A stretch of 64,000 bases of DNA, taken from Octopus vulgaris (lineage: Eukaryota). Location: contig OX597838.1 of assembly GCA_951406725.2 (NCBI GenBank), positions 25,544,001-25,608,000 of the forward strand, in the 5' to 3' direction. The notes under the pieces were generated by a model. That model was not told the origin of the DNA and did no database searches. It saw only the letters and a program-made list of their open reading frames with translations. A program made the position numbers and the translations under genes. This document shows positions 8,485 to 63,691 of the stretch, piece after piece (position 1 is the first letter of the stretch; each line of letters begins with the position of its first letter).

Positions 8485-8593
8485 TATTCTACAATATCAC
8501 GTAAATTTGTTGAAGTCATGAATGATTACAACACAACACAGATAGACTACAGGGACCGGTGTAAAGCACGCATAAAGAGGCAAATGGAGATAA
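8485..8593 (+). CDS. STX1: Syntaxin-1 exon 6A (mutually exclusive copy A; Habc helix c / linker start), [36 protein letters not shown]+1 nt
   Basis: CAG acceptor at 8482-8484 and GTAAGG donor at 8594; 109 nt, phase 0 to phase 1, same as vertebrate STX1A exon 6; peptide clearly homologous to STX1A residues 120-155. Confidence 0.93.
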
Positions 8594-30805: not shown

Positions 30806-30943
30806 ATAATAATGGAGACCCAACAAGCTAGGCAGACATTAGCAGATATTGAGGCCCGACATGAGGATATTATCAAATTAGAAAATAGTATAAGGGAACT
30901 ACACGACATGTTTATGGACATGGCTATGTTAGTAGAGAGCCAG
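30806..30943 (+). CDS. STX1: Syntaxin-1 exon 8 (SNARE motif N-terminal half to zero-layer Q), [46 protein letters not shown]
   Basis: TTTCAG acceptor, CAG/GTAGGG donor, 138 nt; unmistakable Qa-SNARE H3 sequence. Confidence 0.98.
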
Positions 30944-32121: not shown

Positions 32122-32232
32122 GGTGAGATGATTGATCGAATAGAATATAATGTTGAAGCAGCAGTTGACTATATAGAAACAGCAAAAATGGATACAAGGA
32201 AAGCTGTGAAATACCAAAGTAAAGCCAGACAG
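32122..32232 (+). CDS. STX1: Syntaxin-1 exon 9 (SNARE motif C-terminal half), [37 protein letters not shown]
   Basis: CTCAG acceptor, CAG/GTAAGC donor, 111 nt; absent from the ORF track but read directly from the sequence. Confidence 0.98.
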
Positions 32233-38648: not shown

Positions 38649-38698
<50 letters not shown>

Positions 38699-41385: not shown

Positions 41386-41589
41386 GGTTGTCTTATTCCT
41401 TGATGTACGTCTAGGCTGCTAAACTAAGAAGTTTTTGTTTTCTTATTAAAAGTACTAATGATCCTGACCATTCTACTTGGTTTAGATAAAAATATCAGGA
41501 ACCAGTTTTTGTATTAATGAATAACACATCAGATTGGTGATTATAGTGCTGATGTAAATATCATAACAAAAGGATAAAGTGTAGATATA

Positions 41590-41823: not shown

Positions 41824-42184
41824 TATAATGAGGTGGTGTAGATATATTATAATGGTGGGGGGGTGGGGGCATAGTGTGAATATAAATATTATAATGATGG
41901 GTGCTATAGTGTAGATATATATAATGAGGTGGGTGTAGATTACGAGGGGTGTAGATATAAATATTGTAAATATACACTATAAAAACCGAGGTCAATTAGT
42001 TTGGAAATTTACAAATTTATTGACCATAACTCATCTCAGACTTTTAATTATTTCTACTTGTTTAGTGTTGCACTTCTGGTTTGATATTTGCTGCTAATTG
42101 TTGTTGTTGCTTTTGTTGAACACTTTTTGTTGTTTTTCTTTAATATATTATTATTATTATTATTATTATAATAGTAATAGTTTA

Positions 42185-43710
42185 GTAGAATCATTAGAGT
42201 GACAGACAAAACATCTTGCAGTATTTCTTCTATTCCTTCACATCCTCAGTTCAAATCCCACTGAGGTTGACTTCACCTTTCATCCTTTCAGGGGCGATAT
42301 AAAGTACCAGTCGGTCACTGGGGGATTGATATAATCACCTTCCCTCTCCTCCCCTTTAAAATTGTTGACCTTGTGCCAAACTTTGAAGCAGTTATTAAGG
42401 CAGCAAGCTGGCAGAGCTGTTAGCATGCTGGACAAAACAGCAGCAGTTTGTCCAGTCTTGTGTTCTAAGTTCAAAATCCACCAAGGTTGACTTTGCTTTT
42501 CAATCTTTCAGAGTCGATAAAATAAGTACCAGTTGAGTACTGGGGTTGATGTAATCGACTTAGCCCCCTTCCTCCAGAATTGCTGGTCTTGTGCTTACAG
42601 TCAAATGGATTATTATTATTATTATTATTTCTCTTTTGCTCAGCTTCTAATGATGGAGATGTATTAAGGTGTTAGCTACCAGTGCACTGAAGTAACCCTT
42701 TATATTTCAAGCACCTTCCAGAGTAATTGAACTGTTCCAAATACAGGTGTCTTCTGCAAGTGCACCATCTGTATTACAACCTCTTTATGTTTAATGAACT
42801 TTTCAAGATCTTGACTTACTGTTCCTAGGGCTCCAACAAAAAGTGGTTTTACTATCACCTTTTTCAGTGACCACGACTTTTTAACCTCCCAAGTTATCCA
42901 GTCATATCTATTGACTCATTATTATTATTAGGGTCATAAGTCAGCAGAATATTTAGTGTCAGACAAGATGACTTGTATTTTTTCCAGCCCCTTACACTCT
43001 GAAAGGTCAGTTTTGACCTTCATTCCTCAAGGCTTGATAAAATAAGGTACCAGCAAGTAATAGGGTTGATTTAATCAACAAACTCCTTTCCCAAATTCAT
43101 TGTCTTGTGCCGTTCTTAGAAACAATAAAGGCAGTAGATTGACAGAACCATTAGAGTATTAGGCAGACTCTTGCTACTATTTCTTCTGGCTCTTCATGTT
43201 TTGAGATCAAATCCTGCCAGGGTCAGCTTTGCTTCTCATCCTTTCAATGTCAATAGAAGAAAGTATCAATCAAGTAGCAGAGTTGATTTAATTTAACTAA
43301 CCCCTTTCTTCGTGATTTCAGGCCTTGTGCCAGCATGTGCAAGAATTATTATTATTATTCTGCCAAAGTCAATTTTGCCGTTCATCTTTTCAGAGTCAAT
43401 TAAATAAGTACCAATTATGCACTAGGGTCGATGTAATCAATTTAACCCCTTCCCCCAAATTTGAGGCCTTGTGCCTCCAGTAGAAAGGATTATTATTATT
43501 ATTAAGCATGCCGGACAAAATGCTTAGCAGCATTTCGTCTGCCTTGATGTTCTGAGTTCAAATTCTGCCAAGGTTGACTTTGACTTTCATCTTTTCAGGG
43601 TCAATAAATTAAGTACCAGTAAAGCAATGGGGTCGATGTAATCAACTAGTCCCCTCCCCCAAAATTTCAGGCTTTGTGCCTTTATTAGAAAGGATTATTA
43701 TTATTATCGT
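42185..43710 (+). mobile_element. Array of ~6 family B SINEs with an embedded R4/Dong-like fragment
   Basis: Successive heads and tails separated by ATT tracts. Confidence 0.85.
42630..42917 (-). mobile_element. 3' fragment of R4/Dong-like (RLE) non-LTR retrotransposon
   Basis: Minus strand reads VGALGTVSQDLEKF...HLQKTPVFGTVQLLWKVLE, matching the (V/I)GALG...LQK..LLGTA.ILR.VL C-terminus; flanked by ATT repeats. Confidence 0.7.
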
Positions 43711-44162
43711 GAAGATACTGTATTGGCAGGATCAGTGGAGCAACAGACAGAACACTGTACTGATATTCAAGACGTTTTATGTTTGAAAAATTGTTCATAA
43801 ACTACAGTTTCCAGCTGCTAGATTTTCTCGAGGCATTTCTCTATCCATGGCAGTAGTCAGATACCAACTGACAATGTCCATGCAGTGGGGGTAACCCCCA
43901 AACTATTTAGTTTCAAAGCAGACTTCTTAATTACGTGGCCATAACTGCATGCACACACACACACACACACTTATTGAAAAATGAATGCAAACTGTAGTGG
44001 GAAGGGAGAATAGTGAATTAACCTAATAATTCTATATTTTAATTGTTAATTAACTAACTTACTAATTAATGTTTCAAAATTTTATGTAATCATTGGTAAA
44101 TATTTTGTCTGTCCATCAATCTATGTATCTATTTTTCTATCTACCTGTTCCTATACCTACTT

Positions 44163-44205
<43 letters not shown>

Positions 44206-44996
44206 ATAATAATTTAGAAATGTCTTTATATTTAATTTTTTTCATTTAGATTTATATATATTTTTTTCATTTATTCTCGCCTATTTTCAATGTTGCATGT
44301 AATTGTTGTAATTGATGTTGTATGCTATATATATAAATACATGCACACACATCCACTCACATATGCATGCACACAGCACAGTATACAATCGCTCACACAT
44401 GCACACAGATACACTCAGGCACAACATACATACCCATTCATACGCAATAAACACAGTACACACAGATGAGTAAATGAGAGAAGTCTCTACATTAATGCTC
44501 AGCATTGGTAGAAATAAGAGCCAAATCTCCTTAGAACTGTAACCTTGTGTCTTAACAAAAGGATGGACACATAACTAACTCCTGGATATGTGAAAAGATC
44601 AGATAACCATGATTGGAATGACTGGTTGTAGGCCTGCTTGATTTCAGTTGACCTGGGGTTAAATGCTTGCCAACATCCACACACATCCATATATGTATAT
44701 ACGTACATATACTCAAATGCAGACATTTACATGCATGTACACTTATACAGACAATTTTATGTAAATTATCAGATATTTTATTCATAACAAATTAAGTCTT
44801 TATATATATATATATATATGCACATGCATACAAAGGGTAGGAGGAGTTTTTGTCAAGGTGGCTCAAACTAATAGGTATGATTTCTGAGTGCTCAAATAGT
44901 TGTGCCTCTAAAATTCCGGTTTGAACAGCAATTGAAGTTGTGGTATGTGATTGTCTTGTTCAAAGAACTGCTAGAAGTGGCTTCCCCTTGAGTTGG

Positions 44997-45136
44997 TAGG
45001 TTAAAGTAGTGAGGAAAGGCAAACAACTAGGCAAGACTTAACAAGGACATTTAATTTTATATAAATTAGCTGCATAACAAATTGTCCTTATCATGTCTTG
45101 CCTAATTTGTTAGCCTTACCTAACCACTTTAACCTA
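44997..45136. repeat. Inverted repeat (~55-bp arms) ~310 nt upstream of exon 10a
   Basis: TAGGTTAAAGT...TAGGCAAGAC...AAGGACA pairs with TGTCCTT...GTCTTGCCTA...ACTTTAACCTA. Confidence 0.8.
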
Positions 45137-45447
45137 TACACACACACACACACATGAATACATGGAAAGCTTGTTTCTTTTATAAAAATTCATGCATACA
45201 TACATTGTATGCAATGTATGTTGTGCATTAAATATAAAATTAATCATGCAAATGTAGTCACACACATACATGTATATACCCACACATGCTCTCTGCATAA
45301 ACAAACATACACACCAAAGTCACCCATATACATACATTCTCATACATTCATATACCATACATATGCACAAACACACACACAGTATGTATTTTAAAAGTCA
45401 CCTGCTTTGTTTATATTTTATTTTATTTTGTTTTATTTTATTTTCAG

Positions 45448-45522
45448 AAAAAAATCATCATTATCGTCGTCGTAATTTTGTTACTAGGTCTTTTGATTGG
45501 TCTGGCCTTTGGTCTTAGCTAG
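45448..45522 (+). CDS. STX1: Syntaxin-1 alternative terminal exon 10a (TM anchor), KKIIIIVVVILLLGLLIGLAFGLS*
   Basis: Long U-rich tract plus TTTCAG acceptor; phase 0; KK followed by about 21 hydrophobic residues and a stop, the typical syntaxin tail-anchor layout. Confidence 0.88.
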   Translation, partial: KKIIIIVVVILLLGLLIGLAFGLS

Positions 45523-45849
45523 TCTTTCTTTGTGTCCTCATCTATCACGTCTATCTGCGCTCCTCTACACACTTCAATGAGGATTGCACCCGTTATCTGC
45601 ACTGAATATTCCTACGTCTGTCCGACAACCCAGTGGCTTGCTGTCAGGCAGGCAACCTACTTGGTTACATGGTTACCTCGAAAACAATGCTATGTTTTGT
45701 TTTGTTATGTTTGACCACCTCTGTCTGTCTGTGTCTCTTCTCATGTCTGTCTGTCTGACTGCTTGTCCCTCTGTCTGTTTGTCCCTGTGTCAATCTGTTT
45801 ACTATGCAATCATTTTGCATGATTGTACCTTTGATTGTTTTGCTGTGTG

Positions 45850-47583
45850 AGTGGATTGATAGAATTGAAATAATACCTTGTGGTGTTTGTTGTGGCTTTT
45901 TATGTTCTGAGTTCAAATCAGCTGAGGGTCAACTTTACTTTATATCCTTCCAGGGTTGATAAAATGAAGTACTAATCAGGTATTGGGCTCATATAATTGA
46001 CTGTTCCTTACCCTTTATAAGAAAATATTATTATTATCATTGTTGTTATTATTATCATTATTACTAAGGCTGAAGGCAGCAAGCCGGCAGAATCATTAGC
46101 ATGCTGGGCAAAATGCTTAGCAGTATTTCATCTGCTGCTACGTTCTGGGTTCAAATTTGCCTTTTATCCTTTCAGGGTTAATAAATTAAGTACCAGTTGA
46201 GTACTGGGGTTAATGTAATTGACTAGTCCCCTCCCCCCAAATTTCAGGCCTTGTGCCTATAGTAGAAAGGATTAATAAGGCAGTGAGCTGGCAGAATCGT
46301 TAGCAAGCTAAGCAAAGGGCTTAGTGGCATTTTGTCTGGCCTTATGTTCTGAGTTCAAATTCTGCTTTCATCCCTTTGGGGGTCAATAGAATAAGTACCA
46401 GTTGAATACTGGGGTCAATGTTATCACCTAGTCCCCCTCCACAAAAAACTTCAGGCCTTGTGCTTATAATAGAAAAGATTATTATTGTTATATTTAAGGT
46501 GGTGTGCTGGCAGAATTGTTTTAAGCACATTGGACAAAATGCTCAGAAGTATTTCTTCCAGTGTTTTTACATTCTGAGTTCAATTTCTGCAAAGGTCGAC
46601 TTTGCCTTTCATCCTTTCAGAGTTGATAAAATAAATACCAGTGAAGTACTTGGGGGGGGGGGGGGGGTCGATGTAATCAACCTCCCCTTCCTCTCCATAA
46701 CTGTTGGCCATGTGTCAAAATTTGAAACCATCATTATTATTTCTGATGTCATTAATGTACCAGCTGTTCTCTTCACTGTGAACTAAGATGGTATATTCTA
46801 TTCAAGTCTTGACGGCTTTGCAGAGACTCTTTGCAACGCCAAGTGATGCTGTTTTCTGGATGTGCTCTGTTTTCATTTTTATGCCTGTCTTTTTCAACCA
46901 GTTTTTAATCTCTTTGCTTATTATACCTAAGGCACCAACTATTATTGACACTCTATATACACCCTATTATTATTGCTAAAGCAGCAAGCTGGCAGAATCG
47001 TTAGCACACCAGACAAACTGCTTAACAGTATTTCTTCCCTCCTTATGTTCCGAGGTCAAATTCTGTGAAGGTCAACTTTGCCTTTCATCCTTAAGCACAG
47101 GGGTCGATGTAATCAACTAGCTCCCTCCCACAAAATTTCAGGCCTTGTGCCTATATTAGAAAGGATTATTGTTATTATTACTATTATGATAGCAAGCTGG
47201 TAGAGTTGTTTGCGCATTAGACAAAAGACTTAGCGGCATCACTTTAGATTTTCCGAGTTCAAATGCTACCTAGGTCAACTTTACCTTTCCCTTCCAGTTA
47301 AGTTTTGGGGGCCAATGTAATCAACAACTCCTCTTAAAACTGCTGGCTTTGTGCCAAAAGTTTGAAAGGATTATTATTATTATTATAGAAGGCAGTGAGC
47401 TGGTAGAAATGTTAGCACGCCAGGTGAAATCCTTAGTGTTATTTTGTCTGTCTATACATTCTGAGTTCAAATTCCACCAAGGTCAACTTTGGCTTTCTGG
47501 GTTGATAAATTAAGTACCAATTATCCTCCACCTCTCTCAATATTTCAGGCCTTGTGTCTATAGTAGAAAGGATTATTATTATT
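45850..47583 (+). mobile_element. Array of ~7 family B SINEs with an embedded R4/Dong-like fragment
   Basis: Heads at about 45850, 46074, 46278, 46497, 46978, 47190 and 47389, mostly after ATT tracts. Confidence 0.85.
46742..46947 (-). mobile_element. Second R4/Dong-like 3' fragment
   Basis: Minus strand reads IIVGALGIISKEIKNWLKKTGIKMKTEHIQKTASLGVAKSLCKAV*. Confidence 0.7.
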
Positions 47584-47687
47584 GGGTGATTGGCAAAATT
47601 AGATACTAAGTTGAAAGTTTTCTACAGTGAAATTTACCTGTCATCCTCCTACAATTGACTTCATCAACTGAACTCCACCTCACCCTG

Positions 47688-47960
47688 GGCCAACCACATG
47701 GTTCTGGGTTCAGTTTCACTGTGTGTCATCCTTGGCAAGTGTCTTCATCAGACCAACAAAAGCCTTGTGAATAGATTTGGTAAATAGAAACTGGAAGAAG
47801 CCATTTGTATGTGTGTGTCTACCACTTCCTGACAACCAATGTTGGTTTATGTTCCTTCATCAGCCTTTAAAAAAATAAGTACTGAGGTTGATTTGTTGAA
47901 CTAAATTCTTTGAGGTGGTACTCCAGCATAGCTGCAGTCTAATGACTGAAACAAGTAAAA
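47688..47960 (+). mobile_element. Family A SINE (degenerate)
   Basis: CCAACCACATGGTTCTGGGTTCAG...GGCAAGTGTCTTC...ATGACTGAAACAAGTAAAA. Confidence 0.75.
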
Positions 47961-48818
47961 TGATTATATATACACACGCTAGTATTAAGAATGTGGACAA
48001 CAAAGAGGGCTATGTACTAAATAGTGGATAAGATAAATTCTTGCTGTATTGGAATTATCTTCCATTAGAGAGAAACTAAACAAACACCTAATGCTGAGCC
48101 TTCCCTGCCCTCTGCAACCTCTGTCTCTTATGGCAGCTGTCTTTCTCCTCTCCCTACATCCTATGTATATATTTTTCTTGTATTATACCCACTCCCCCAC
48201 ATCTATATATCCCTGTGTTGCTAAAGTACGTTTTGGGGCTACTAAGTTGTATGATTGTGTGCATAAATGTATGTATGTGAATGTTTGTACTTGTCATACA
48301 TATGTGTATAGTTGTGTTTGTATATATAAATGAATGCCTATTGCTTTCTGTTGTCTATATGTATTGTATAATCACACACACACACACACAGAGATTTCTG
48401 TGTGTATGTGTATCTATGTAAATGTCATATGCATGTATATAGTTTTGTGTATATATATAAATAAATATACACATATTACACTCTGTATTGTATAGTCACA
48501 TTCTCATACACACAAATTTCTGTGTGTGTGTGTGGCAGGATTATGTTGCATGAAATTACCAATATAAATAAAATACAAATCTGGGGTGGGGGGAATCAAG
48601 ACTATAATTAAAAAGTAAATTCTAACGACAAGCTTGAAAAAAACCCCCAGAAAATAACCCCTCCCTACAACACTAAATGAATTCTTCCCTTTCCTTATTG
48701 CACACTACTTTAAATTATGTCAGCCAAATATCTACTAGAAGAAAACTTATGTGGAAACATTCTTGAAGTTAATATTCAGTGATCAATAACGAATGAGCAT
48801 ATACAGAATGCATTAGTT

Positions 48819-48992
48819 TATAATTAAAATGAAGGAGAGATAAAATTCAAATTGATGTTACAATTGTTTTAGCAATTGAACATTTTTATTCTATGCAACA
48901 TATATAAATGTTGTATAGAATAAAAAATGTTCATTTACTCTAAACAATTGTAACATCAATTTGAATTTTATCTCTTTTCCATTTTAATTATA
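48819..48992. repeat. Near-perfect 174-nt palindrome/hairpin
   Basis: AGAGATAAAATTCAAATTGATGTTACAATTGTTT is exactly inverted to AAACAATTGTAACATCAATTTGAATTTTATCTCT. Confidence 0.92.
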
Positions 48993-49175
48993 TATATCAT
49001 TATTCGCTCTGCGAAGCATATTTTATGCCTGTTGGATTTATGAAAGACTTCCGTTCATAATCTATTGGAGTTTAACTGATGTTTATTCAGTTAACTGAAT
49101 ACAATACGAACCAGGTTCTTACATGAAGTGTTATTGAGGTGATAGCCTGGACTATAATTACCCCCTCAAATGTAG

Positions 49176-49215
<40 letters not shown>

Positions 49216-49327
49216 GGTGGTTGTCTATTCCTTATGCAGAGTTTGACCACCTCCTGTACCTACACCTTAGCACCATCATGGCATCTGATGTGATTTTTTT
49301 AAACCAGACAATGTTCTGAAAAGACAC

Positions 49328-49364
<37 letters not shown>

Positions 49365-50182
49365 TACATACACACATAATTGTGGTTTTGCATATTGCAT
49401 ACATATACTCTACAATCTGCACCACTTTTTTTTAACAGAGGAGAGCATCCTCTATCTATCCACCCACCCACCACCAATTGATTTCCAGCAGAGAATCCTT
49501 ACCTCTTCTCCAATATCAAATCCTTCTGGATAAGCAAGAATATCTGAGTAAAACACCCTCCCATAACCTGATTATTGACAAGTTAAATTTGCTTTTTTTT
49601 TTTAAGGAATTCCATGCAGTGGGATTGGTGGTGGGGGGGATTGGGCATTTTTTAAGAAGAAAAGGGGTCATTTAAAAATAATATAAAGTAAAAAAAAAAA
49701 AGGTTTTTAATTGAAGAAATCCTTCCCCTCCTTCAATCTTTTCTCAAAATAAAAACAAAAAGAACAGCCTCAACAACGAGTACAGGAAAAGAAGACTTGG
49801 AGAGCAAGCAGGTAAACTTATGGAGAACATGAGTGAGAGAGATGGAGATGTTGATAGAGAGAGACAAGACTAAGTTTAACAGTTGAAACTTTGTTTTAGA
49901 AAAAAATCATTGACATTTTGTTTTATATATATGTGTATATATATATATATATACACACACACACATACATACGTGCACACACACACATATATTAGAATTA
50001 GTATACAGAAATGCATATATGCTTCTGTATATATATATATATATGTGTGTATAGCTAAATAAGCAAATGAAGAGGTGTATGTGTGTGAATATATGGATAT
50101 ACCCAAATTTGTGTACGAAGAGAGTGTGTGTGTGTATGTATATATATAATGATAATATATATATACATATATGCATATATAG

Positions 50183-50645
50183 GTACAGGATGTCACCAAC
50201 TGTAAACAACATGAAGTATGAAAATGCAAACGAGAGAAAAAATGGAAAACAGGACAAGTAACACAAAGAACAACCCTTCATCAGTTGTCAGCTGTCTATC
50301 TACCCCTCATTTCGAGCATTCAACAACAATATGAGTCTTTGGAGACAGTTGGGTCGTTCTTTGTGTTACTTGTCCTGTTTTCCATTTTTTTCTCTCTCAC
50401 TGTTTGCATAATCAACTCATTTGTTTTCATAATTCATGTTGGAAAACAGAACAAGTAATACAAAGAACAACCCAACTGTCTTCAAAGACTCATATTGTCG
50501 TTGAATGCTTGAAATGAGGAGTAGATAGACAGCCGATAACTGATGAAGGGTCGTTCTTTGTGTTACTTGTCCAGTTTCCAATATTTTTTCTCTCGTTGGT
50601 TGCGTATTCAACTCGTTTGTTTTTGTACTTCATGACATCCTGTAC
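50183..50645. mobile_element. Nested inverted-repeat element (two self-complementary halves that are also inverted copies of each other)
   Basis: GTACAGGATGTCA/TGACATCCTGTAC ends; GGAAAACAGGACAAGTAACACAAAGAAC occurs twice in each orientation. Confidence 0.8.
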
Positions 50646-51495
50646 TCATACGTGCATATATATATACACATATATTATTATTTAATTGAATGACACACAT
50701 CTATTTCCAAGTAAGTTTACATATACACACACACATTCATAATGAATGCATGCGTATGTGTTTGTGTGTTACTATATGTATGATTGCGTGTGTATCTACA
50801 TATATGTAGATATACATTATAAATATATATATATAATGATAGATGCATATATGTAATGTACATGTAGTGAATGTGTATATAAATCCATATATATGCATAT
50901 ATATATATATATAATGAAATTATGCATACTATATATATATATATATATGTGTGTGTATATGACTATGATGAATGTATACATGTGTCTATGATAAATTTGA
51001 AAGAAGAAAGTGAAGAAAAAATTTTTCAAATAATAATTATAATTTATAAAATTGGATGAAATATTTTATGTGAATAAAAATTAACAAATAAAACATATGA
51101 AATGTGAAGTCTTTGGTTCAGTTTAAACTGGTTTGATCCGATTTGAAATCTATTTTGAATGAACTATTTTTGCTTTACCCATTTGTATTTTAATTCCCTT
51201 GTAAAAAAAAAAAAAGACTGTTAATCATTCCTTTTATGTGTGTGTTTTTAATTATTTCATTTTCTTAATAAAAACAATGCAAGTTTTAAAAACAGTACTT
51301 ATCAATGGATTGTATTGGTACCATGTATTCCAGAATTAGGGCCTCTTCTTCGGGAAATTTTCTCCCTGGAATATTGAAATGCAGGGTATAAAGTACAAAC
51401 TATTGATCTGTATTATTATGACTTATCTTGTTTTAACTTTATGAAACAAAACAAATATATATCAGACATTGCTTCATGTGAACTATTAATGTATA

Positions 51496-51699
51496 CAGTG
51501 TGGGCCAAAAGTCATGCACCAATTCATTTGACATTTTATTTATACAGCATTATCATTAGTTATTCACGTTTGTTCATCATGTACAAGTACATGTGTATTC
51601 ATCATTATTTTATTTGTTTTATTGAATTTTAGAAAATCTGAAGGAAGTTTTTGTTCTAGAGCATATTGAATTTTTGTGCATGACTTTTGGCCCACCCTG
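51496..51699. mobile_element. Tc1/mariner MITE
   Basis: TA-CAGTGTGGGCCAAAAGTCATGCAC...GTGCATGACTTTTGGCCCACCCTG-TA. Confidence 0.85.
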
Positions 51700-51979
51700 T
51701 ATATATAATAAAATCTGTTAGTTGTCTATGAGTCAGGAAAGAAGAACACTATCAAGAAATTTCAAGCAGTCTATTCTGAATTATGGCATATAACCAGTGG
51801 TTTCTCATCTACTATTGCACTTGACAATAGTGAAGAAAATGTGTCCAAAAAGCCTTCTGGCTGGAAGCATGTAGCCTCTTTACTGATGGAGGTAAATATA
51901 CAGTCTAAGTCAGTTTGATGGTGGGAGTCCTAAAAGTGACCAAGACTGTATTTTTACCTCCATTAGTAAGGGCAAATCA

Positions 51980-52274
51980 ACCCCAGGACTTATTCTTTGT
52001 AAACCTAGTACTTATTCTATTGGTCTCTTTTGCCGAACTACTAAGGTACAGACATGTAAACACACCAGCATTGTTTGTCAAGTGATGTTAGGGGGGACAC
52101 ACAAACATATACACACACATGCATATATATATATATATATATACATACACACACACGATGGGCTTCTTTCAGTTTCTGTCTACCAAATCCACTCACAAGG
52201 CTTTAGTCAGTCTGAGGCTATAGTAGAAGACACTTGCCCAAGGTGCCATGCAGTGGGATTGAACCCAGAACCAT
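51980..52274 (-). mobile_element. Family A SINE in reverse orientation
   Basis: Reverse complement of the 22387/28546 sequence (GAAGACACTTGCCCAAGGTGCC...GAACCC). Confidence 0.85.
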
Positions 52275-52578
52275 AATGATTTTGCAAAAAGTACTTGATA
52301 CAGTCTCAATATTTGAAGAAAAATTTTCTTGAAATAAAAAATTATTAAATATATAAAAAACTCTTTAAAAAGAAATATGAAATTAATATTTTGGAAGCAA
52401 GCTGTTGTATTGTCTGTTTATGGGGTAAAACCCTGTAACACTTGTTTGTAAAACCTGATAGCAAAAGCTCTTACACACACAATATGAAAACCTCTTCCTA
52501 ACAGAATATGTCTTTTTTCTTTATTATATAATTAATCATTTTTAGTTAAAAAAACATCTTTATATATTTGTGTATTTA

Positions 52579-52844
52579 TTGGGTTGTCCCATAAATAATG
52601 CGGGTTTTTTTAATACTTTATTTGTTTTTCAAAGTTAAGATAAATAAAATTCTTTTTTACAATGCTCTTCTATCTGGTAGACTTGCAAGTCCCTCTTCCA
52701 AAATACACTTGTCCATGATGAAAAATACTCCTCCAGTACTGTTCTGATCTCATCTACAGAATTTATATTTTTTCCATCCAAATGATTTTGAAGACTACAG
52801 AATAAATGATAATCGGAAGGAGCATTATTTATGAGATGACCCAA
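52579..52844 (-). mobile_element. Internally deleted mariner element
   Basis: TA-TTGGGTTGTCCCATAAATAATGC / GCATTATTTATGAGATGACCCAA-TA TIRs; minus-strand APSDYHLFCSLQNHLDGK matches the mariner (YSPDL)APSDYHLF motif. Confidence 0.88.
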
Positions 52845-52856
52845 TATATGTGTGTG

Positions 52857-52915
<59 letters not shown>

Positions 52916-55900
52916 TATTTATATGTATATGTGTGTGTGTATGTGTATATATATATATATACTGTTGTTAATAATGACATTAACATAACTATTTCATTCC
53001 AGTAGCAAAATCACCCTCAAATTACACCCCATCTTAGAAATAGAAGGATAATATAGTCCTAGATATACTACATCTAAATATAAAAGCAAAAAAAAACAAA
53101 AAAACAGGTTGATCATGGCTGGAACACTTTTGACCATCAATCTACCTGATCAGGGCTGAACTGAGCTAAAAAATAAACTATGATGGAACTTATAGATACT
53201 CAATAAACTATGATGGAACTTATAGATGCTCAATAACAGTCTGGATTGTAGAGAAAAAGAATGCATCATGCTCAGTCTTCCACATGTGGTATTACCCTGT
53301 TAAGCTACGACATATCAAATTATACAGAATGATATATATATATAGGTGGAGTCACGGCTGTATGGTTAAGAAGATCACTTCCCAACCACATGATATCAGG
53401 TTCCGCATGGCACTTTGGACAAGCATCATTTATGATATGTGCATGGATGGGTGGTGTCTGTGTCTCCTTCTCTTGATATGACACAATAGTTGTAAATGAG
53501 CATCACATTCACACAAGCAGTAGCTTTCATGTCCAATCTTCCATGAAAACATGACTGGCCTTTGGGAAATATTATCTTGCATGTATATCATTGAAACATG
53601 TACACATTGTGAATTGCAAAATAGATACAAATATATGTTTGGTTTGAGTCTACAGATGAAGTGGGAAACAAGGTAAAGTTCTTTGTGGTATTTACTATGC
53701 ATAGAATTTGGTAGTATTGATCCATGAGCATTTAAACCAGCCATATCCAATCCAAACATATCTACCTGTTTCATGTTCAAACCAACCAGATTTTGCCTCT
53801 CCCACTGACCCTACAATGTCATTCTAAAAGTTAAACAATCACAGCATTAAAATCTCCAAGCTACAAGTTAATGCATGATTAATTCAAAACAGTGAGAATC
53901 TATAAGCATTACATTTGACAGAGTAATCTGCATGCTAAAGGGTTAAACTGGCTGAAGTGCTTAGTCTACCTACAAAAAACAGGAACAATTCCCATGACAA
54001 GCTTCCACATAGTTTTTATTTGCCAAATTCCACTAAAAATTGCTTTGGTTTCAAGACTATGGTATAAGACTTTCTCAACATTCATCACAAGTGGGATATT
54101 GAACCCCAAACCACATATTTGTAAAGCCAACCCCTTAACTATCTGGCAATGTTCGTAATTCGGACTGAGTTCTAAGATTGAATTTTGTCTGACATTCTTC
54201 TTAAGTTTAATGTGAGGCTGCATGACCCAATGGTTCAAGTGTTGCACTCATGATTGCAAGATTGTAGTTTCAATTCCCAGACTGGGAATTTCCCACTGCT
54301 TCAGTCTGCTCAGCTGTAAATGAGTGACTCTGCAATGGACCGGCACCCAGTTCAGGATGGGGTGTCATCTTGATCACTTATATGCTGTGGAAACCAAATA
54401 ACTGACCCTATGTGTTCCTATGACTTGCGACAGTTCTTGCTTATGTCTAAGGTTAATAAAATAAAATACCAGTAATATTCTAGTGTTTGATATAAAAGAC
54501 CTTACCTCCACCCCCAAAAATTCTGTCTTGAAATTGTTGATGTTGTTTATATTGTTTTTGCTATTATTAATGTTCATTTCTTATCCTTGATATTATCACC
54601 ATTGACTTTTGTTGTTAATGATTAATAAGTCATTTGTCATACTTCACAAAGATATATATGTATAAAATGTGTTTATATATATATATATATATATGTAAAT
54701 GTATGTGTGTGTATATATATATGTAAATGTGTATATATGTATGTGTGTGTATATATATATGTAAATGTGTATATATGTATGTGTGTGTATATATATATGT
54801 AAATGTGTATATATGTAAATGTGTGTATATATATATAGATTTTTTCCTCCATCTCTAATGTCATGGTACTGCCATGATATTGTGACGGATGGTTCAGGTA
54901 CATGGTAACAGTGAACAAGATAACGATGCAACCATAATAACAATGTAACAATCCAGCAATCTCGAGAACCAGCAATCAATATTCCAAACAAACTAACCAT
55001 CCGACACCTTCCAACTTCACTGCAAACTCAACTCAAAGTAACACAGAAACTTCACTCTGACCGCTACTATTTATCATCACTTAATCCAGTCTATTTCTCG
55101 CAAGGGGGTGTTGTGACTCATCACAACATTATATATATATAGATAGATAGATACATACATACACACACACACTATAAATGTTTTACTTTTATTGCAAGTT
55201 TATATAAAAACAATTCAACATTAAATTGAAGAATTAAATTTTTCTTCTGTAGACAATATATTTATTATACTTCTACAAGATGAAGGATGACAGTGACATC
55301 AAAATTTTGACCTGCTAGTCTTCATTAGAAGTTTAAAATTCACTGTCACCCCTCTTATAAAAGCTTGATAAATAAACACACACACACACACACAATTTGT
55401 CAACCAGCTTCACAAGCCATTGGCAGTGGTAGTAGATACTTGCTCAAAGTCCTATGCAATGGGATGGAACTTGAACTTATATGGTCACAAAGCAAACTTC
55501 ATTCTGCTATGTTGTTTATAGTAAGCAGAAGAATCTGGGGAAAAAAAAACAGGTGTTGAACTGTGTCAACAATTTGGGAGATATAAGCTGTTAATTAGTG
55601 AAATAAATTGGTTTGTTGTGAGGGGAAAAGAGGGGGAGAAAGTCTATTGTTTCAGTAGTACTATTTGTTGGAGAGTAATGTTTTCTGATGGTACTGGATA
55701 GCTAGATAGATTGGGAATAGTGAAGAATAAGGGATTGAGAGATCACAAGATAACTGTTGCACAGCTGTTAAAGAAGGGAGATAATAAGAATTGTATCAAA
55801 TTTTGGCACAAAGCCTGTAATTTTAGTAGGAGAGGATTAGTTGATTACATCATCATCATGAACAACCCCAGGACATAACTGTCTCATGTCGTAGGACTGA

Positions 55901-58091
55901 TAGCGTTTAATACCTGGTCTCCATGGGGTATGAGCAACTGAGATGACAAACTTCCTCGTGGACAGGACACCAGTCCACTGCAGGGCTTATTTGCAACTTA
56001 ATGGACTGGAACAAAGTGAAATGAAATGTTTTTGTCAAGAATACAATGCACCACCTGGTCAGGTAATTGAAACCATAACTTTGCAGCTGAGTGCAACACC
56101 CTAGCTACTAGGCCATGCACCCCCCATGATAAGTGATTACAAACTAAAATTTGATTTTAACTTCTGTAAGTGGGAAAAAACTTTAAATAACATCCAGTGG
56201 TGAGCTTTAGCTTGGGATTTTAAGTTTTGGAGAGTATAAAGCTACCCCTTAATCACCCCCATTTCTAGATCCACCTTGGCTATGGGTGGTAGTGTCTGTC
56301 AAAAGCCCCACATGGGTCAAATAGCAGAAAATGGTCCTGTGGCTTTGGTATAAAGGGCTCAGAGTAGGGCTGGTCCCTGGATGTGTTACATAGACCTACT
56401 GGTGTATGGACATGCTTTGAATGTTGTGGTAACCAATCACCTTGCCTAAGCGTTAAATAGACCCCTGTGCCCCAAGGGTAAGCCTGAGTGAGCATGTTAC
56501 TTGCAGAGAAAACTAAATAATCCAGCAGAAGGTGACAGGGAACCACTGCTGTATCTTTCTCGGAAAAAAATAATCTTGAATTTATCTCCTTTACTTGGAG
56601 GTCCTTGAGCACTGACTCCTGTTGGCATGGCACAGAGAGTGAGAGGTGAGATGGGAAGGAAGGCAGAGAGGTGGGGAGAGACAGATGAGGAGGAAGGCAG
56701 AGAGAATGTGAAGATGGGAGAAAAGGAGAGAGAGACATGTATTAACTGTCATTTTTGTCTATCAGTATTGCAGTTCAAATCAAGGGAACTATCTACTCAT
56801 TGTATCAATAGCATAAGTAGCTGAGTATACCACACACATTTATACACTCTTTAACATAATCCTTAAGCAAAATCAGTAGCACAAGGCTGATTCTTTGGTT
56901 CACTGCCACAGCCTGCACACTTTGTTCCATTTACCCAATGTCACATGCAAAGCTATTGAAGAAGACAGGGTACCATACAGTAAGATTGAACCTTTGAACT
57001 AATGACTGCAAAGCAAACACCTTAACCATTTGGCCATATCTACACCTGATAATTTCCAATAACCAAGGCCATTGTCAGCTCAGATGGTCCTCTTAAAATT
57101 AATGAAAATACATGACTTGGCTAGTAGTCTACTTTTGGCCATATCCCTTCATGATTGTTAAGTGTTGCCATTATTCTTCATCCATGGCTGAGAACATAAG
57201 TTTCAGACAAAGTACTGGGGTTGATACATCACTGACAAAAACTCCCTCAGTGATACCTTAGCATGGCTGCCATCCAATTACTGAAACCAATAATGGACTT
57301 ACCACCAGTTGAGAGAGTAGAAGTTTAAAGCTTATTACCTGTGATCAGTTACACCTAGTGCCAAGATTTCATTTAGGCAACTTTTTAGTTTTGTTTTTAA
57401 TTTAGTTTATGAAACAGCAGCATAAGAAGCTTAATTAATGAAGTAGGGAGTGACATTGCTGTACTTAGAGACATCTCTTTTTAAGGGAACAATTCTGCTC
57501 TTTGTCTTTCTGAATCTGACAAAAATTTGCAGCTGGAGTATTGAGGGTGATCTAATTGAAGTAACCTATCTCAAAAATTTGTGCTTCTGGCTTTGTATCC
57601 TGAGTTCAAATTCCACCAGTGACCTGAAGGAACAGCCACATACAAATAGCTATTGGTTGTGACCGGTAGCAATGGAGGAAGTATATTTTTGGTAGGGACG
57701 GTTGAAGAATTTTACAGATGTGAGAAAGCTTAAGAATGGGAATATTAAAAATAACAAGGAAAAATTTACAATCGTTGTAATGTATGTATCAGTGACATAT
57801 ATAATACACACACACATCATAGACATGTATGTGTGTATATATATATATACACACGTATAAGCATATATATTTATACATATACATACACACACAAATATAA
57901 ATGGTTATGTACCTGTATATACCTATCTCTTTATACATATATATACATATATATATATATATCCACGTAAATTATATTTTAATGTTCATCTAATCATCTA
58001 AATGTACTCATAAAACACACATATATACACATGTGTGTCTGTGTGTATGTATGTGTGCATATATGCATATATATATATATATATATATATA

Positions 58092-58954
58092 CAGGTTGTC
58101 CCAAAAGTCACTGATGGGTTTCAACATCTAATAACTTCCTTAATTTTACAAATAAATGCATGAAATGTTGATACAATATAAAAGACATAATGGAAATTAA
58201 TATGCACAAATCAAATTTTGAAACACCACTACATCACATATGAAAAATGACATTGCTTAAATGGCAGCCATTTTCAGCTTCACACACCCTTGCTCTTTTC
58301 AAAACTTGCACCTTCAAGAGTTTCAGACCCTACTTCTCTGATTTCTCTATTGATGTTTTCCTTCAGTTGCACCAGGGTCTCTGGTTTGTTGACACAAACC
58401 CTCTCCTTCAGATATCCCCAGAAGAAAAAAATCCAGGCTAGTCAAGTGTGAGGAAAATGAAGGCCAGTTGACATTGCCATAGTGGGAGATTATTCTCTCT
58501 CCAAAGCACTGCTGTAGCAACTGTATTGTTTCTCTTGTGATATGAACAGTTGCCCTCGTCTTGCTGGAACCATGTGTGAGGTCCACTTTGAGTGGCAAGG
58601 CGCAAAAAGGTCTCAGCCACGGATACCTGAAAGAGAGGGTTTATGTCAACAAACTGGAGACCCTGGTGCAACTGAAGGAGAACATCAATAGAGAAATCAG
58701 AGAAGTAGGATCTGAAACTCTTGAGGGTGTTATGGTGCAAGTTTTGGAAAGAGCACAGGCATACAAAGCCGGAAATGGCTGCCATTTAAGTGATGTCATT
58801 TTTCATATGTGATGTAGGGGTGTTGCAAAATTTAACTTATGCATATTAATTTCCATTATGTTCTTTATATTGTATCAAAATTTCGTGCATTTATTTGTAA
58901 AGTTAAGCAAGTTATTAAAAATTGAAAACCATCAGTGACTTTTGGGACACCCTG
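58092..58954. mobile_element. Tc1/mariner-superfamily derivative built from two inverted 3' ends
   Basis: CAGGTTGTCCCAAAAGTCACTGATGG TIRs extended to ~330-bp arms; transposase remnants WFQQD...FGERIISHYGNVNWP..S.HLTSLDFFL (minus) and GYLKERVYVNKLETLVQLKENI (plus). Confidence 0.9.
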
Positions 58955-59550
58955 CATATAATTGTAGTTACATATCAATGGCCTAATACAACTTTGCAAC
59001 TCACAAGACATTTACTTTATCTGGAGTCCCTCACAACTTTATCCAGATTCTTTGGGGGCATAAACTATAAGGATACAGATGTGTTGACCTCCACATGAAA
59101 TATCCTGTAAGTTGCAAATGCCATGGAGGTGAAACAACTACCCATTGCTATTGAACACATTAATGCTTTATACTTTGCTGACATCTTAGCCTGTACTATT
59201 GTTGTGCATGTGTATATACATATATATATATATATATAATGTATTTGCTTATATATTGTTTATATTTAAATGCATTTATACACACACACACACACATTCT
59301 AATGTTTCTTCATATATATATATATAAATATATATACATATATATATATGTGCACACATAATATATGCATATATATATACACATATATATACACATATAT
59401 ATATATATATACATATATATACACACACACGTGTATATATATAAATATATATTATACATATATACATATGTGTGTGCACATATGTTAAGTTTCATATTCA
59501 GATACGTTCCTGTATGTGTGTAGAGAGAGAGAGAGAAAGAGAGAGGGAGA

Positions 59551-59916
59551 GAGATAATGATGCAAATAAACAAATGAATCTGCTTAGGCTAGATATACAT
59601 ACATATATACATGTAATTACAGAGAAAACAAAGACTGGAAATGTTCAGACAATGAATATTTATGTATAAATATATAAATATTTGTATATTAACAGAGTAA
59701 AGTTACAAAGATACAGAAAACTAAGGGGAGAAGGTATGTTGTTACAGGTCTGACAGCTGTTTCTCCCTTTAATTTTCTGTCTTTGTTATTATATAAATAT
59801 CTATATAATTATACAGGAATATTCATTGTCTGAATAGCTTCAGTCTTTGTTTTCTCTCTATTGTGTTTTTTACATCTAGCCCAAAGGTTTCATTTGTTTA
59901 TTTGCATCATTATCTC
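59551..59916. mobile_element. Foldback element with ~170-bp arms and a partial hammerhead (GAAAC-AGCT-GTC) on the minus strand at the loop
   Basis: GAGATAATGATGCAAATAAACAAATGAA is inverted to TTCATTTGTTTATTTGCATCATTATCTC; the loop contains TGACAGCTGTTTC. Confidence 0.75.
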
Positions 59917-60622
59917 CAAATCTGCTCACCTGGATTTCTCATATACCCATCCTTTACCTCACAGACTTAGTACTCGGTTAAGATTTGAGAGTTAAGTTCA
60001 AATGATTTGAGCGCTATACAGTGTTTTCTATATTGAACATCTCTGGATCTCTCTCTCTCTCTGTATATTTATATATATTTATAAATATATATCATACAAG
60101 CATGGAACACTTACGTCCAGTATATGGATTTTCTTGACGGTGTCAGATATAATTTTTTCTAATTTACAGCTACTGATTGTTAGCTGTCGTACATGTCAAT
60201 TACAGGAAAGGAACATTGTCAGTGCAACTTAACAAAAATTGCCATGTCACCAAACCATTCACCTGTTGAAGGGGTACAACTCTACTTGATTTAATTATGA
60301 GATTTCAGTAAAAACAAAAATTGTTACATGGAGTTAAAATTAAAAATGAAAAAAAAAAAAAACAACACATATATATTGCGGGGTTAAATACTTAGGGGTT
60401 ACACTGATAGTGTTTTTTTTTCCTCTAATAGACATGTATGTCAGCTAATGAACTGTAGTTGTAAATCATGAAAATTATCCAATGCTGCTGGGAAAATCCA
60501 AGAACTAGACATACATGTTCTATGCTTGTGTTACATATTAAATGTCATCCTTTATTCCAATGCTATTCTAAGTTTTGTAAAGTCTATTTCTTTTGTTGTT
60601 ACACATGTGGTTTGTCGGCATG

Positions 60623-60658
<36 letters not shown>

Positions 60659-60988
60659 CATACACACACATTTACATAAAGTTAAATATATGCCCAGTCA
60701 TAGAATGACCAATGGTTTCACATCCGTAAAACATTTAGCTTAATTGATGACTCAGACTCTTATGATTGAGGGCATAGAATCTGACAAGTCGTCTATAAAG
60801 CCAAGAGCTTTATGGGTGCAAAACCATTGGTCATGCTATGACCATATATCTAACTTCATGTAAATACATTACTGCTCTAACTTTTAGAGTGTGCTTCTTT
60901 TTCAGACAAACACACACACACATATATATATTTGTATGTATGGAAAAATGCTCTTTTATACAGGTTTCATTAAAAATACAATTATCCT

Positions 60989-63240
60989 CCAGTTTTATCT
61001 GTTTTTATTACAGATTTTTCATATTTTCATCTTAGTTTATTGCAGTTAGTTCAGAAAAATAAAGCTCCTCAATGCATATTCAATAATTTCAGACATTTAC
61101 AGTTTCATTTGCAAGAATTGAAACAGACATGGTGTCCACATTACTTCTTATAGGCGGGTCAAATTTTTGTAAACTTTTCACCACAAACAAGATCCCTTTA
61201 CTTTCCATGTGCTTATATACAGTTCAGTAAAATAAAAACTACAAAAACAAAACAACTCCCCCCCAGTTCATAATATCCCAAATACCTACACATTCAGTTC
61301 CTATGAAGAATACACACTAGAGAAATATAGTACAAGGTCATCTGAGGAATTCATACAGATTTTAGAAGAAACCAATACGTCAGATACCATCTCCTCTATA
61401 TGTGTAGAAAGCTTGTTCACTAACGTCCTAGTGACAGAAACCATAGAAATAATATTGAAGAATGTATATGAACTCCAAAAAAAATATAATAATTTAGGTA
61501 TTAAAATATACTCAAGATGGGAACAACTGAAGTACCTTTTCACTACCTGTAAACTAATTTAATCAAGCAAACAAATGGACTACCCATAGGTTAGCTTTTA
61601 GGACTTATATTTGTGGCATTCTGCTTATTCACAATAGAGAACAGAATAATAACAAAACATAAGTACATAATATACACAAACTATATATATTTTATTCTTG
61701 TGGTAATGGATACATTATAGGTTACTGAAAGACTAAAAGAAGACTCAGAAAACAACTCTGTATTTAAAATATAACAGCCAGAATGATACAAATAAGACCC
61801 AGTTTTTAGTGAAAAGAGAAACAGATACATTGCTACAGTATACACCAAAGAATCAGACAAATGCATATAGCTGCTTAGAGAAAGCCTACACAACTATAAG
61901 ATGTTAGTAGTAAAATCACTCCTAAAAAGAGCATTTAATTTCTCATTCACAAACAAAACACTAGAGAAAGAAATCCATGGAATAAACAAGCATTAATTAC
62001 AACAATGGATATTTCAGATGATGCAAGAGAAGAATACAGGCACAAATACAACAAACACACAGTGTATGCTGAACAGATGTATACAAATCACACACAAAAT
62101 TTATATGAATCAAATGCATAAGAAATATCAAACAGATAAATACATAATCAAAAACCTTGTAATAATAGAACACAGAATGCATCACACTCAATCATAAATT
62201 AATGATTTACTTCCAGAACACACAAACCAAACTTTTCTTTATCAATAACACACCACAAGCATGTAAGCCTGAGAACAAGCTACTAATGACCAACATAATC
62301 TACAAATTGTAAACCTGGAAGTGGAGAACCTCGGGACTCCAGCTGTTACATTGGACATACTAATATAACACTTTCTCTTAGACCTACCATGCATTTACAA
62401 GGAACAAATCACAACCCACTACGTCACAGACAGCAAAACAAAGTTGGATAAAAAAAAAAAAATCAGAGGAGAATACATGCTTATTGTATGAACTTCCTCA
62501 CAAAACTAGCACTCTGTCGGTTACAATGACAAGGGTTCCAGTTGATCCGATTAACGGAACAGCTTGCTCATGAAATTAACATGTAAATGGCTGAGCTGAG
62601 CACTCCACAAACATATGTGTCCTTAACATAGTTCTCAGGGAGTTTCAGCATGAGAAAGAATGTAACAAAGCTGGCCCTTTTAAATACAGGTACTACTCAT
62701 TTTTGTCAGCTGAGTGGACTGGAGCAATGTGAAAAAAAAGTGTCTTGCTGAAAGACACATGTTGCTGGGAATTGAACTCACAGCTTTATGATTGTGAGCC
62801 AATTATCCTAACCGTTAAGCCATATGCCTCACAAAAATAGAAGATTAATCACAGATACCATGCTCATATCACAACACAATGCCAAAATAAACACAAGCAA
62901 TACACACATCAAAAAAAAAAATGTAACAGGTGCCTACTGACAGGAAAACTTAATGGTAAAAAAAAAATTGAAAGAAATCTACATAAATTTGACCACAACA
63001 AAAATTTACATAAATACTGATGTGGAAGCCTAACTGCCTTAATTAACTTTGGCTGAATCTACAAAAACTCAGCCAGTTTGTAAGAAGCAACACAGACACC
63101 AAATGTATTTCAGTTCTTGGAAATGAGACTGTGAAGATCTGGAAATGTTGAATATGAATTTTGCAGCTTCATTATTCCAAACTAATCACAAGAAACTGAG
63201 AGGAAAATATGAAAAATGTCTTATAAAACAATAAAACTGG
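60989..63240 (+). pseudogene. Decayed Penelope-like retroelement (RT plus GIY-YIG) with an inverted terminal repeat
   Basis: RT motifs VESLFTNVLVTETIEIILKNVY (about 61404) and KQTNGLPIG* (about 61565); endonuclease motifs NIIYK...CYIGHTNITLSLRPTMHLQG (about 62292-62403); 60989-61174 is an inverted copy of 63058-63240. Confidence 0.82.
62507..62830 (-). mobile_element. Family C SINE nested in the Penelope-like element
   Basis: Reverse-complement homologue of 992-1318. Confidence 0.8.
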
Positions 63241-63471
63241 AACACAGTTATGATTTTAATCAAGCCTAAACACACACATTATATATATATATATATATAC
63301 ACACATACATACATACACACAAATGTATATTATTAAATGTTCATGATTTCATATTTAACATTCATGTTTAAATGCTTGTATATATAATATTTAATTCATC
63401 AATGAAATGCTTATTTCTGTGTATATGCAAGTTTTTGTATGTTGCAAATATGTATGTTTGTGTATGTGCAC

Positions 63472-63536
<65 letters not shown>

Positions 63537-63610
63537 GGCATATATATACATATACACATTTATTTATGTATTTTTTCTATATTTTTTTCTTTCTCCTTTC
63601 TCTTTTGCAG

Positions 63611-63691
63611 AAGAAAATCGCTATCCTGGTTTGTCTGATCATTTTGGTTTTAGTTATCATTTCGACAGTGGGCGGAGTTTTTGGTGGTTGA
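63611..63691 (+). CDS. STX1: Syntaxin-1 alternative terminal exon 10b (TM anchor), KKIAILVCLIILVLVIISTVGGVFGG*
   Basis: Pyrimidine tract plus TTGCAG; phase 0; resembles the vertebrate STX1A TM segment (KKIMIIICCVILGIIIASTIGGIFG), including Cys at the C271-equivalent position. Confidence 0.96.
   Translation, partial: KKIAILVCLIILVLVIISTVGGVFGG

What the first reader, a model, noticed from the sequence alone, without database searches (positions are those of the whole stretch)
45448..63691. Two alternative transmembrane anchors 18 kb apart
Exon 10a (KKIIIIVVVILLLGLLIGLAFGLS) lacks the Cys equivalent to the palmitoylated C271, is two residues shorter and carries a GxxxGxxxG glycine zipper. Exon 10b (KKIAILVCLIILVLVIISTVGGVFGG) is the conventional type. 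Each brings its own 3' UTR. Alternative C-termini are known for C. elegans unc-64 and vertebrate syntaxin-2/3. Combined with exons 6A/6B this gives at least four isoforms from one gene, possibly covering roles split among paralogues in vertebrates. Exon 10a is easily missed and is not in frame in the ORF track.
Basis: partly seen in the sequence, partly recalled or inferred. Interest (0 to 1): 0.72.

Follow-up and report, generated by a model that had tools for sequence, protein, structure and literature searches.

The report
Octopus syntaxin-1 has two membrane anchors
The octopus gene for the membrane-fusion protein syntaxin-1 has two alternative membrane-anchor exons that resemble the epithelial and the nerve-type anchors of vertebrate syntaxin-3, so one gene likely supplies both a synaptic and a general-secretion form, through an old splicing switch already dated to early bilaterian animals and already annotated in related octopuses.

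Summary
Both exons are real. Exon 10a (45448-45522) is joined to exon 9 in single spliced contigs of two studies. The 10a protein is already in RefSeq for O. sinensis and O. bimaculoides; the 10b anchor nearly matches deposited squid syntaxin. The two anchors belong to ancient classes. 10a scores with vertebrate STX3A/STX2-type anchors, 10b with STX1A/STX3B-type anchors (0 of 500 shuffles as extreme). The intron position and exon order match human STX3. 24 of 28 protostome species with two or more tails hold one of each class. The conserved difference is apolar core length (about 20 versus 15 residues), so 10a is shorter overall but has the longer core. The full glycine zipper is an Octopus-only substitution on an old AxxxGxxxG motif, and most protostome 10a-type anchors keep the cysteine. 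Contig ends suggest the 6A/6B and 10a/10b choices are not strictly coupled. Tissue specificity and function are untested. PMC8373072 already dates the STX2/STX3 event to Bilateria, and this scan noted the same switch in fish and arthropod DNA. Verdict: new member of a known kind, low-moderate interest.

The parts
8485..8593 (+). Exon 6A (109 nt), one of two mutually exclusive exons for the end of the Habc domain (YSTISRKF type)
   Evidence: present in P0014, P0016 and squid O46345
13283..13391 (+). Exon 6B (109 nt, 78 of 109 nt identical to 6A; HATLSRKF type, closer to rat STX1A)
   Evidence: present in P0017
29434..29507 (+). Exon 7 (74 nt), linker
30806..30943 (+). Exon 8 (138 nt), N-terminal half of the SNARE motif
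32122..32232 (+). [quoted passage not shown]
45448..45522 (+). Exon 10a coding part: Cys-free anchor, 24 aa, 21-residue apolar run, STX3A/STX2-type class
45523..47569 (+). 3' UTR of the 10a isoform (at least to 47569; end not mapped; UG-rich start, then dispersed repeats)
   Evidence: table 8 (X3, X5, X10)
63611..63691 (+). Exon 10b coding part: Cys8 anchor, 26 aa, 15-residue apolar run then STVGG, STX1A/STX3B-type class
   Evidence: its junction in this species inferred from a contig end in X10

Best explanation
This octopus syntaxin-1 gene has two alternative last exons that encode different membrane anchors, and they are likely the octopus copies of an ancient bilaterian pair, with 10b likely the synaptic anchor and 10a likely the anchor for non-neuronal or constitutive secretion. 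Shown: the exon 9 donor is spliced to 10a in transcripts, and both anchors are on record as protein models or deposited sequences in cephalopods. Inferred: when the proximal acceptor (45448) is used, the transcript ends in the 10a UTR; when it is skipped, exon 9 joins 10b 18 kb further on. The choice differs between samples (contig ends) and is likely tissue-regulated. The cytoplasmic part, including the KARQKK juxtamembrane stretch, is the same, so the switch would act through the membrane. 10b has a short apolar core (15) and a palmitoylatable Cys, like STX1A/STX3B. 10a has a longer core (21) and no Cys, like STX3A. By analogy with mammalian work this would sort the isoforms into different membrane domains (hydrophobic mismatch) and give 10b more spontaneous and synchronous release.
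For: Junction: in X3 (study P2) and X5 (study P3) one contig runs exon 8, exon 9, then exactly 27 letters (= 45448-45474), then 45475 onward (table 8, records 16 and 22). In X10 (study P5) the exon 8-9 contig stops 2 letters past exon 9, where 10a and 10b first differ (both start AA). Records: P0014 (6A+10a) = XP_029650845.1 and XP_052832644.1; squid O46345 carries 10b. Classes: 10a scores 62.4 against vertebrate STX3 A-type tails and 34.2 against B-type; 10b scores 35.4 and 78.9; 0 of 500 shuffles as extreme for either. Across 78 non-cephalopod protostome tails, the octopus and vertebrate classifiers agree at rho 0.887 (100 shuffles: mean 0.414, max 0.634). Median apolar run is 15 for B and 20 for A in both protostomes and vertebrates. 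Cys8 is in 38 of 38 protostome B and 21 of 21 vertebrate B tails. AU tests reject a vertebrate-only clade (p 0.0245) and a cephalopod-only clade (p 0.0337). Human STX3 has the same exon boundary and the same order, A-type before B-type. Function by analogy: PMC9183232 passages, PMC4313621 passages, PMC11476516 passages.
Against: No tissue labels were available, so neuronal versus non-neuronal use is not shown. The tree has only 27 columns, an unsettled bootstrap and low-complexity sequence, and both p values are modest. The non-B class is diverse: with the stricter rule (one tail below 0, one above) only 14 of 28 species qualify, and the cut-off of 17 was chosen after seeing the scores. The grouping of 10a with vertebrate A tails (81/92, open fork) may partly reflect shared Cys loss. 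In C. elegans the proximal exon is the neuronal one and the two anchors share their first 11 residues, so it does not fit this pattern. Most species pairs are automatic gene models.
Confidence: 0.68

Rival explanations
1. The two exons are real, but the resemblance to vertebrate STX3A/3B is convergent: terminal exons were duplicated separately in several lineages and drifted to similar long-core and short-core anchors.
For: Short hydrophobic sequences converge easily; shuffled tails still give rho about 0.41. Cys loss in A-type anchors is patchy across lineages. C. elegans unc-64 has a different layout.
Against: Same intron position and order as human STX3. Shared specific motifs (GLSVG-like versus ST[IV]GG-like). 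AU tests reject lineage-only clades. PMC8373072 dates the STX2/STX3 events to Bilateria.
Confidence: 0.12
2. The exons are an ancient pair, but in octopus the main point of the switch is the 3' UTR (mRNA stability, transport or editing), and the two anchors are functionally interchangeable.
For: Each exon brings its own UTR; the 10a UTR is at least 2 kb and its first part is shared with runs of other organisms at 64-85% of sampled words. In C. elegans either isoform rescues axon regrowth when overexpressed.
Against: The anchor difference (core 15 versus 20, Cys8 in all B tails) is kept across phyla. In the same C. elegans study only isoform A rescued locomotion. STX1A and STX3A anchors are not equivalent in neurons.
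Confidence: 0.12
3. 10a is an octopus innovation whose glycine zipper drives oligomerisation or a pore-like function.
For: The full GxxxGxxxG is found only in Octopus among 130 tails examined (83 protostome, 47 vertebrate STX3), and the anchor is identical in the window and two named Octopus species.
Against: It is one Ala-to-Gly step from the AxxxGxxxG present in 26 of 26 vertebrate A tails and 10 of 45 protostome non-B tails. The cuttlefish counterpart has no Gly (P0245). 10b and 26 of 38 B tails also carry GxxxG.
Confidence: 0.06
4. 10a is a chance hydrophobic ORF or an unspliced-RNA artefact.
For: The intron is full of ATT repeats that translate to poly-Ile, and run X1 holds intronic contigs.
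Against: Exon 9-10a junction contigs in two studies with exact spacing, RefSeq models in two species, homologous anchors across molluscs.
Confidence: 0.01

Closest known systems
Vertebrate STX3A / STX3B (exons 9A/9B, 10A/10B; PMC11476516 and PMC9183232 passages; PMC8373072 supplement rows)
   Same: Two alternative terminal anchor exons starting at the same codon, in the same order: Cys-free long-core anchor first, Cys-bearing STX1-like anchor second. STX3A is epithelial/non-neuronal, STX3B is synaptic (retina).
   Different: STX3 also swaps exon 9 (second half of the SNARE motif); octopus has one exon 9 and instead swaps exon 6. Octopus 10a is about 3 residues shorter than STX3A and 10b has one Cys, not two.
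Vertebrate STX2 C-terminal splice pair (event 205 in PMC8373072)
   Same: Alternative terminal anchor exons, dated to Bilateria; one has the GLSVG motif that 10a resembles (P0180 scores -26.2, 10a -28.2).
   Different: Neither STX2 anchor is of the STX1 type. The second STX2 anchor (LATTLS type) matches oyster tails (18 of 25 identical to P0173, counted by eye) and has no counterpart found in octopus.
RefSeq Octopus syntaxin isoforms (XP_029650845.1, XP_052832644.1) and squid s-syntaxin (O46345)
   Same: Identical 10a protein on record; 10b differs from squid at 2 of 26 residues.
   Different: None of the three O. vulgaris models retrieved has 10a, and no stored protein has 6B+10a.
C. elegans unc-64 exons 8a/8b (PMC4946901 passages)
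   Same: One syntaxin-1 gene, two anchors, neuronal versus non-neuronal use, set by a CELF protein.
   Different: [quoted passage not shown]

Membership tests
Syntaxin-1 subfamily of plasma-membrane Qa-SNAREs | Habc domain (PF00804) plus SNARE motif (PF05739) plus C-terminal anchor | tested here: met
   both domains above cut-off in P0014 and P0016, whose last 168-170 aa the window encodes exactly
Syntaxin-1 subfamily of plasma-membrane Qa-SNAREs | Closest solved relatives are syntaxin-1 | tested here: met
   rat STX1A E 6e-116, squid s-syntaxin E 3e-99, yeast Sso2 E 3e-21
Alternative last exons (tandem duplicated exon substitution) | Both exons have splice acceptors, keep the frame and carry their own stop | tested here: met
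Alternative last exons (tandem duplicated exon substitution) | Exon 9 is spliced to 10a in RNA | tested here: met
   single contigs in X3 and X5 (2 of 4 runs laid); X10 fits by its overlap length; X1 shows no junction among the listed pieces
Alternative last exons (tandem duplicated exon substitution) | Exon 9 is spliced to 10b in RNA of this species | tested here: inconclusive
   Indirect only: contig end in X10, gene models and the squid record
Alternative last exons (tandem duplicated exon substitution) | Separate poly(A) sites | not testable with these tools
   Contigs cannot show ends; candidate AATAAA hexamers listed
STX3A/STX2-type (GLSVG) anchor class, for 10a | Closer to vertebrate A than B tails; long apolar core; small-xxx-GxxxG; proximal position | tested here: met
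   (nearest row STX3 P0290, 67% over 24 columns); support is modest and a 3-residue gap is needed
STX1A/STX3B-type (STIGG) anchor class, for 10b | Cys at position 8, 15-residue core, ST[IV]GG, distal position | tested here: met
   (22 of 23 B rows in one group, 94/86)
STX1A/STX3B-type (STIGG) anchor class, for 10b | Neuronal expression and palmitoylation | not testable with these tools
   Runs carry no tissue labels
Glycine-zipper oligomerising helices | GxxxGxxxG conserved among orthologues | tested here: not met
   1 of 45 protostome non-B tails, 0 of 26 vertebrate A tails; cuttlefish P0245 has no Gly

The most novel reading that the evidence does not exclude
The bilaterian ancestor's single syntaxin-1 gene carried three anchor exons (GLSVG, LATTLS and STIGG types; all three appear among Mytilus galloprovincialis models) that act as a membrane-thickness and palmitoylation switch, 20 versus 15 apolar residues. 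Vertebrate STX1, STX2 and STX3 shared them out after gene duplication. Octopus keeps two, and has removed the palmitoylation site from the long anchor independently of vertebrates, so that one gene toggles between a palmitoylated synaptic t-SNARE and an unpalmitoylated epithelial one.
Probability: 0.4. Interest if true: 0.5.

Novelty: new member of a known kind. Interest (0 to 1): 0.3.

Why it matters
If the class mapping holds, cephalopods and other molluscs offer a clean natural experiment: two t-SNAREs identical except for the anchor, at synapses that are classic models of release. It would test whether anchor length and palmitoylation alone separate synaptic from constitutive fusion, and it would explain vertebrate STX1/2/3 partly as a sharing-out of ancestral splice forms. 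The exon itself is already annotated in sister species, and the age of the switch is in print, so the gain is an added case and a sharper mechanism, not a new system.

Tried and rejected
No RNA holder was listed as such; the laid contigs count as RNA only because they join exons. A third anchor exon in octopus: none found among 1399 candidate ORFs from exon 9 to 59 kb past the window end. A duplicated exon 9 as in insects and STX3: none found with 10 queries. A second syntaxin-1-type gene in G000: exon 8 has one match; the other strong SNARE hits are a syntaxin-5 (Pfam), a similar exon and one that I read from recall as syntaxin-16. Only 150 of 72981 candidates were scored, so a divergent paralogue is not excluded. 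Which exon 6 variant lies in the X3 and X10 contigs could not be read, so coupling rests on contig ends only. A first splice check used a wrong exon 7 boundary and failed; it was corrected. The first shuffle control for classifier agreement used only 8 tails per class and was redone with all. UG-rich sequence after 10a as a CELF site: 64 TGT per kb against a window median of 28, 90th percentile 57, maximum 88, and largely simple repeat, so only a lead. No fold or complex was predicted, because a short hydrophobic helix would not give a decisive score. Papers on octopus or squid syntaxin anchor isoforms or on the class mapping: none seen in the listings of 10 searches; the library lacks most subscription journals, where older squid, STX2 and SNARE-evolution papers would be. 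PMC9741552 had no STX hits in its text or its one held supplement. PMC9282427 showed nothing on syntaxin isoforms in the 12 of 24 passages shown.
Full report
Observation. The window holds the 3' part of a syntaxin-1 gene on the + strand. The encoded protein is identical to Octopus records, so the animal is an Octopus. Exons in the window are 6A (8485-8593), 6B (13283-13391), 7 (29434-29507), 8 (30806-30943), 9 (32122-32232), 10a (45448-45522 plus UTR) and 10b (63611-63691 plus UTR). Two earlier exons lie 8 and 16 kb upstream of the window. Among 1399 AG-anchored short ORFs from exon 9 to 59 kb past the window end, only 10a and 10b stand out as syntaxin anchors.

RNA evidence. I laid 4 of the 20 runs that hold the 10a region on 30600-47600. 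In X3 and X5, from two studies, a single contig carries exon 8, exon 9 and then sequence from 45475 on. The gap in contig coordinates is 27 letters, exactly 45448-45474, which the tool did not align. X1 showed intronic contigs and no junction among the listed pieces. In X10 the exon 8-9 contig ends two letters past exon 9, where 10a (AAA) and 10b (AAG) first differ, and a second contig carries 10a with a 55-letter overhang (27 + 28). I read this as both anchors being present in X10; it is an inference from how such contigs break. The X5 contig ends 74 letters before the match to exon 8, one base into exon 6, where 6A and 6B first differ. So X5 seems to hold both exon 6 variants ahead of a 10a-only path, X10 one exon 6 variant with both anchors, and X3 one of each. 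This argues against strict coupling, but contigs drop rare forms and I could not read which exon 6 lies in X3 or X10. Among squid- or cuttlefish-like records, 3 of 3 full-length 10b-type proteins have 6A (P0121, P0160, P0167) and the two full-length Sepia-type proteins listed have 6B (P0144, P0246), a hint of a tissue-level bias in small numbers. Contigs cover the 10a UTR to at least 47569.

Already on record. The 6A+10a protein is RefSeq XP_029650845.1 (O. sinensis) and XP_052832644.1 (O. bimaculoides). 6A+10b and 6B+10b are also on record, and squid O46345 carries 10b. No stored protein has 6B+10a.

What the two anchors are. I extracted anchors from fetched proteins. Vertebrate STX3: 67 of 118 proteins had an anchor, giving 47 unique tails, 26 of the GLSVG (A) type and 21 of the STIG (B) type. 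Protostomes: 83 tails from a hand-named subset; unnamed rows and rows without an anchor were left out. Octopus 10a scores 62.4 against A and 34.2 against B; 10b scores 35.4 and 78.9; none of 500 shuffles was as extreme. Ranking 78 non-cephalopod tails by likeness to 10b versus 10a and to STX3 B versus A gives rho 0.887, against a shuffle mean of 0.414 and maximum of 0.634. With a cut-off of 17, chosen after seeing the scores, 24 of 28 species with two or more tails have one B and at least one non-B tail. With a strict sign rule only 14 of 28 do, because the non-B class is diverse. A tree of 52 tails over 27 columns puts 22 of 23 B rows together (94/86) and needs 2 label changes against 17 for shuffles. 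AU tests reject a vertebrate-only clade (p 0.0245) and a cephalopod-only clade (p 0.0337) and do not reject a B clade (p 0.283); the bootstrap had not settled. Human STX3 has its anchor exons starting at the same codon, A type before B type (supplement rows of PMC8373072), as in octopus. Most species pairs are automatic models, and I did not check that each pair comes from one gene.

Cys8 is in 38 of 38 protostome B tails and 21 of 21 vertebrate B tails, but also in 36 of 45 protostome non-B tails, and in 0 of 26 vertebrate A tails. Its loss in 10a therefore looks lineage-specific and parallel to STX3A. The full GxxxGxxxG is in 1 of 45 non-B tails, while small-xxx-GxxxG is in 26 of 26 vertebrate A tails; the cuttlefish tail has no Gly. 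The feature shared across phyla is the apolar run: median 15 in B and 20 in A in both protostomes and vertebrates, 15 and 21 in octopus.

Mechanism. Shown: alternative splicing to 10a, and sequence classes. Inferred: tissue-regulated choice of last exon, with 10b synaptic. The named Aplysia and Lymnaea syntaxin records and the squid record are all B type; that they were cloned from nervous tissue is my recall. By analogy: STX1A is palmitoylated on C271/C272, loss of both nearly abolishes spontaneous release, STX3A lacks these Cys, and swapping in the STX1A anchor restores synchronous release (PMC9183232, passages). Anchors differing by one or two residues segregate into different membrane domains (PMC4313621, passages). 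STX3A is epithelial and STX3B retinal-synaptic (PMC11476516, passages). In C. elegans a CELF protein sets the unc-64A/B choice, but the layout differs (PMC4946901, passages). No second syntaxin-1-type gene turned up in G000, which fits one gene doing both jobs, but the search is not exhaustive.

Novelty. PMC8373072 (passages; supplement rows) already lists the STX2 and STX3 C-terminal exon substitutions as dating to Bilateria, with Daphnia as the example. I came to that paper through earlier notes of this scan, which report the same kind of switch in cartilaginous fish and an arthropod; those notes are unchecked except where I cite my own calls. I saw no paper on the octopus case, the class-by-class mapping or the 15/20 core difference in 10 searches of an open-access library; older subscription papers could hold them. 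Verdict: real, ordinary in kind, a new member with a modestly sharper evolutionary and mechanistic reading. Interest 0.3.

Noticed in passing
window 63628/63629 and L002:6178-6216 (about 5.2 kb past the window end): A deposited model (P0013, CAI9740853.1) leaves exon 10b after six codons at a weak CTG|GTTTGT donor and ends in a 12-aa non-anchor tail that is encoded exactly downstream behind an AG. It would be a soluble, anchorless form; likely a prediction artefact, not tested with RNA.
   Followed up: partly
window 63608-63613: The 10b acceptor is a tandem CAG AAG; use of the second AG would drop one Lys from the juxtamembrane stretch.
   Followed up: no
window 8485-8593 and 13283-13391: The exon 6A type (YSTISRKF) also occurs in records of a nemertean, an annelid and a flatworm, alongside the 6B type in Lineus, so this pair seems old within Spiralia; I saw it in no arthropod or vertebrate row printed.
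   Followed up: partly
window 32221-32232: The juxtamembrane stretch reads KARQKK in octopus and squid, one basic residue fewer than STX1A's KARRKK, in both isoforms.
   Followed up: no
P0136/P0152, P0138/P0155/P0166 (Mytilus); P0173, P0175 (oysters): Mytilus galloprovincialis models show three anchors, and oyster tails closely match the second human STX2 anchor, suggesting a third ancestral class that octopus lacks.
   Followed up: partly
window 45523-46022: UG-rich stretch right after the 10a stop (64 TGT per kb, above the window's 90th percentile of 57), a possible CELF-type site; largely simple repeat.
   Followed up: partly
L014:925-2046 (-) and L016:304-510 (+): G000 has an intronless syntaxin-5 ORF on one contig and a similar syntaxin-5-like last exon on another, possibly a retrocopy and its parent.
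   Followed up: no
window 39105-40238, 41940-44207, 45909-47600: A highly abundant dispersed repeat family fills intron 9 and the 10a UTR (summed contig depths in the thousands).
   Followed up: no
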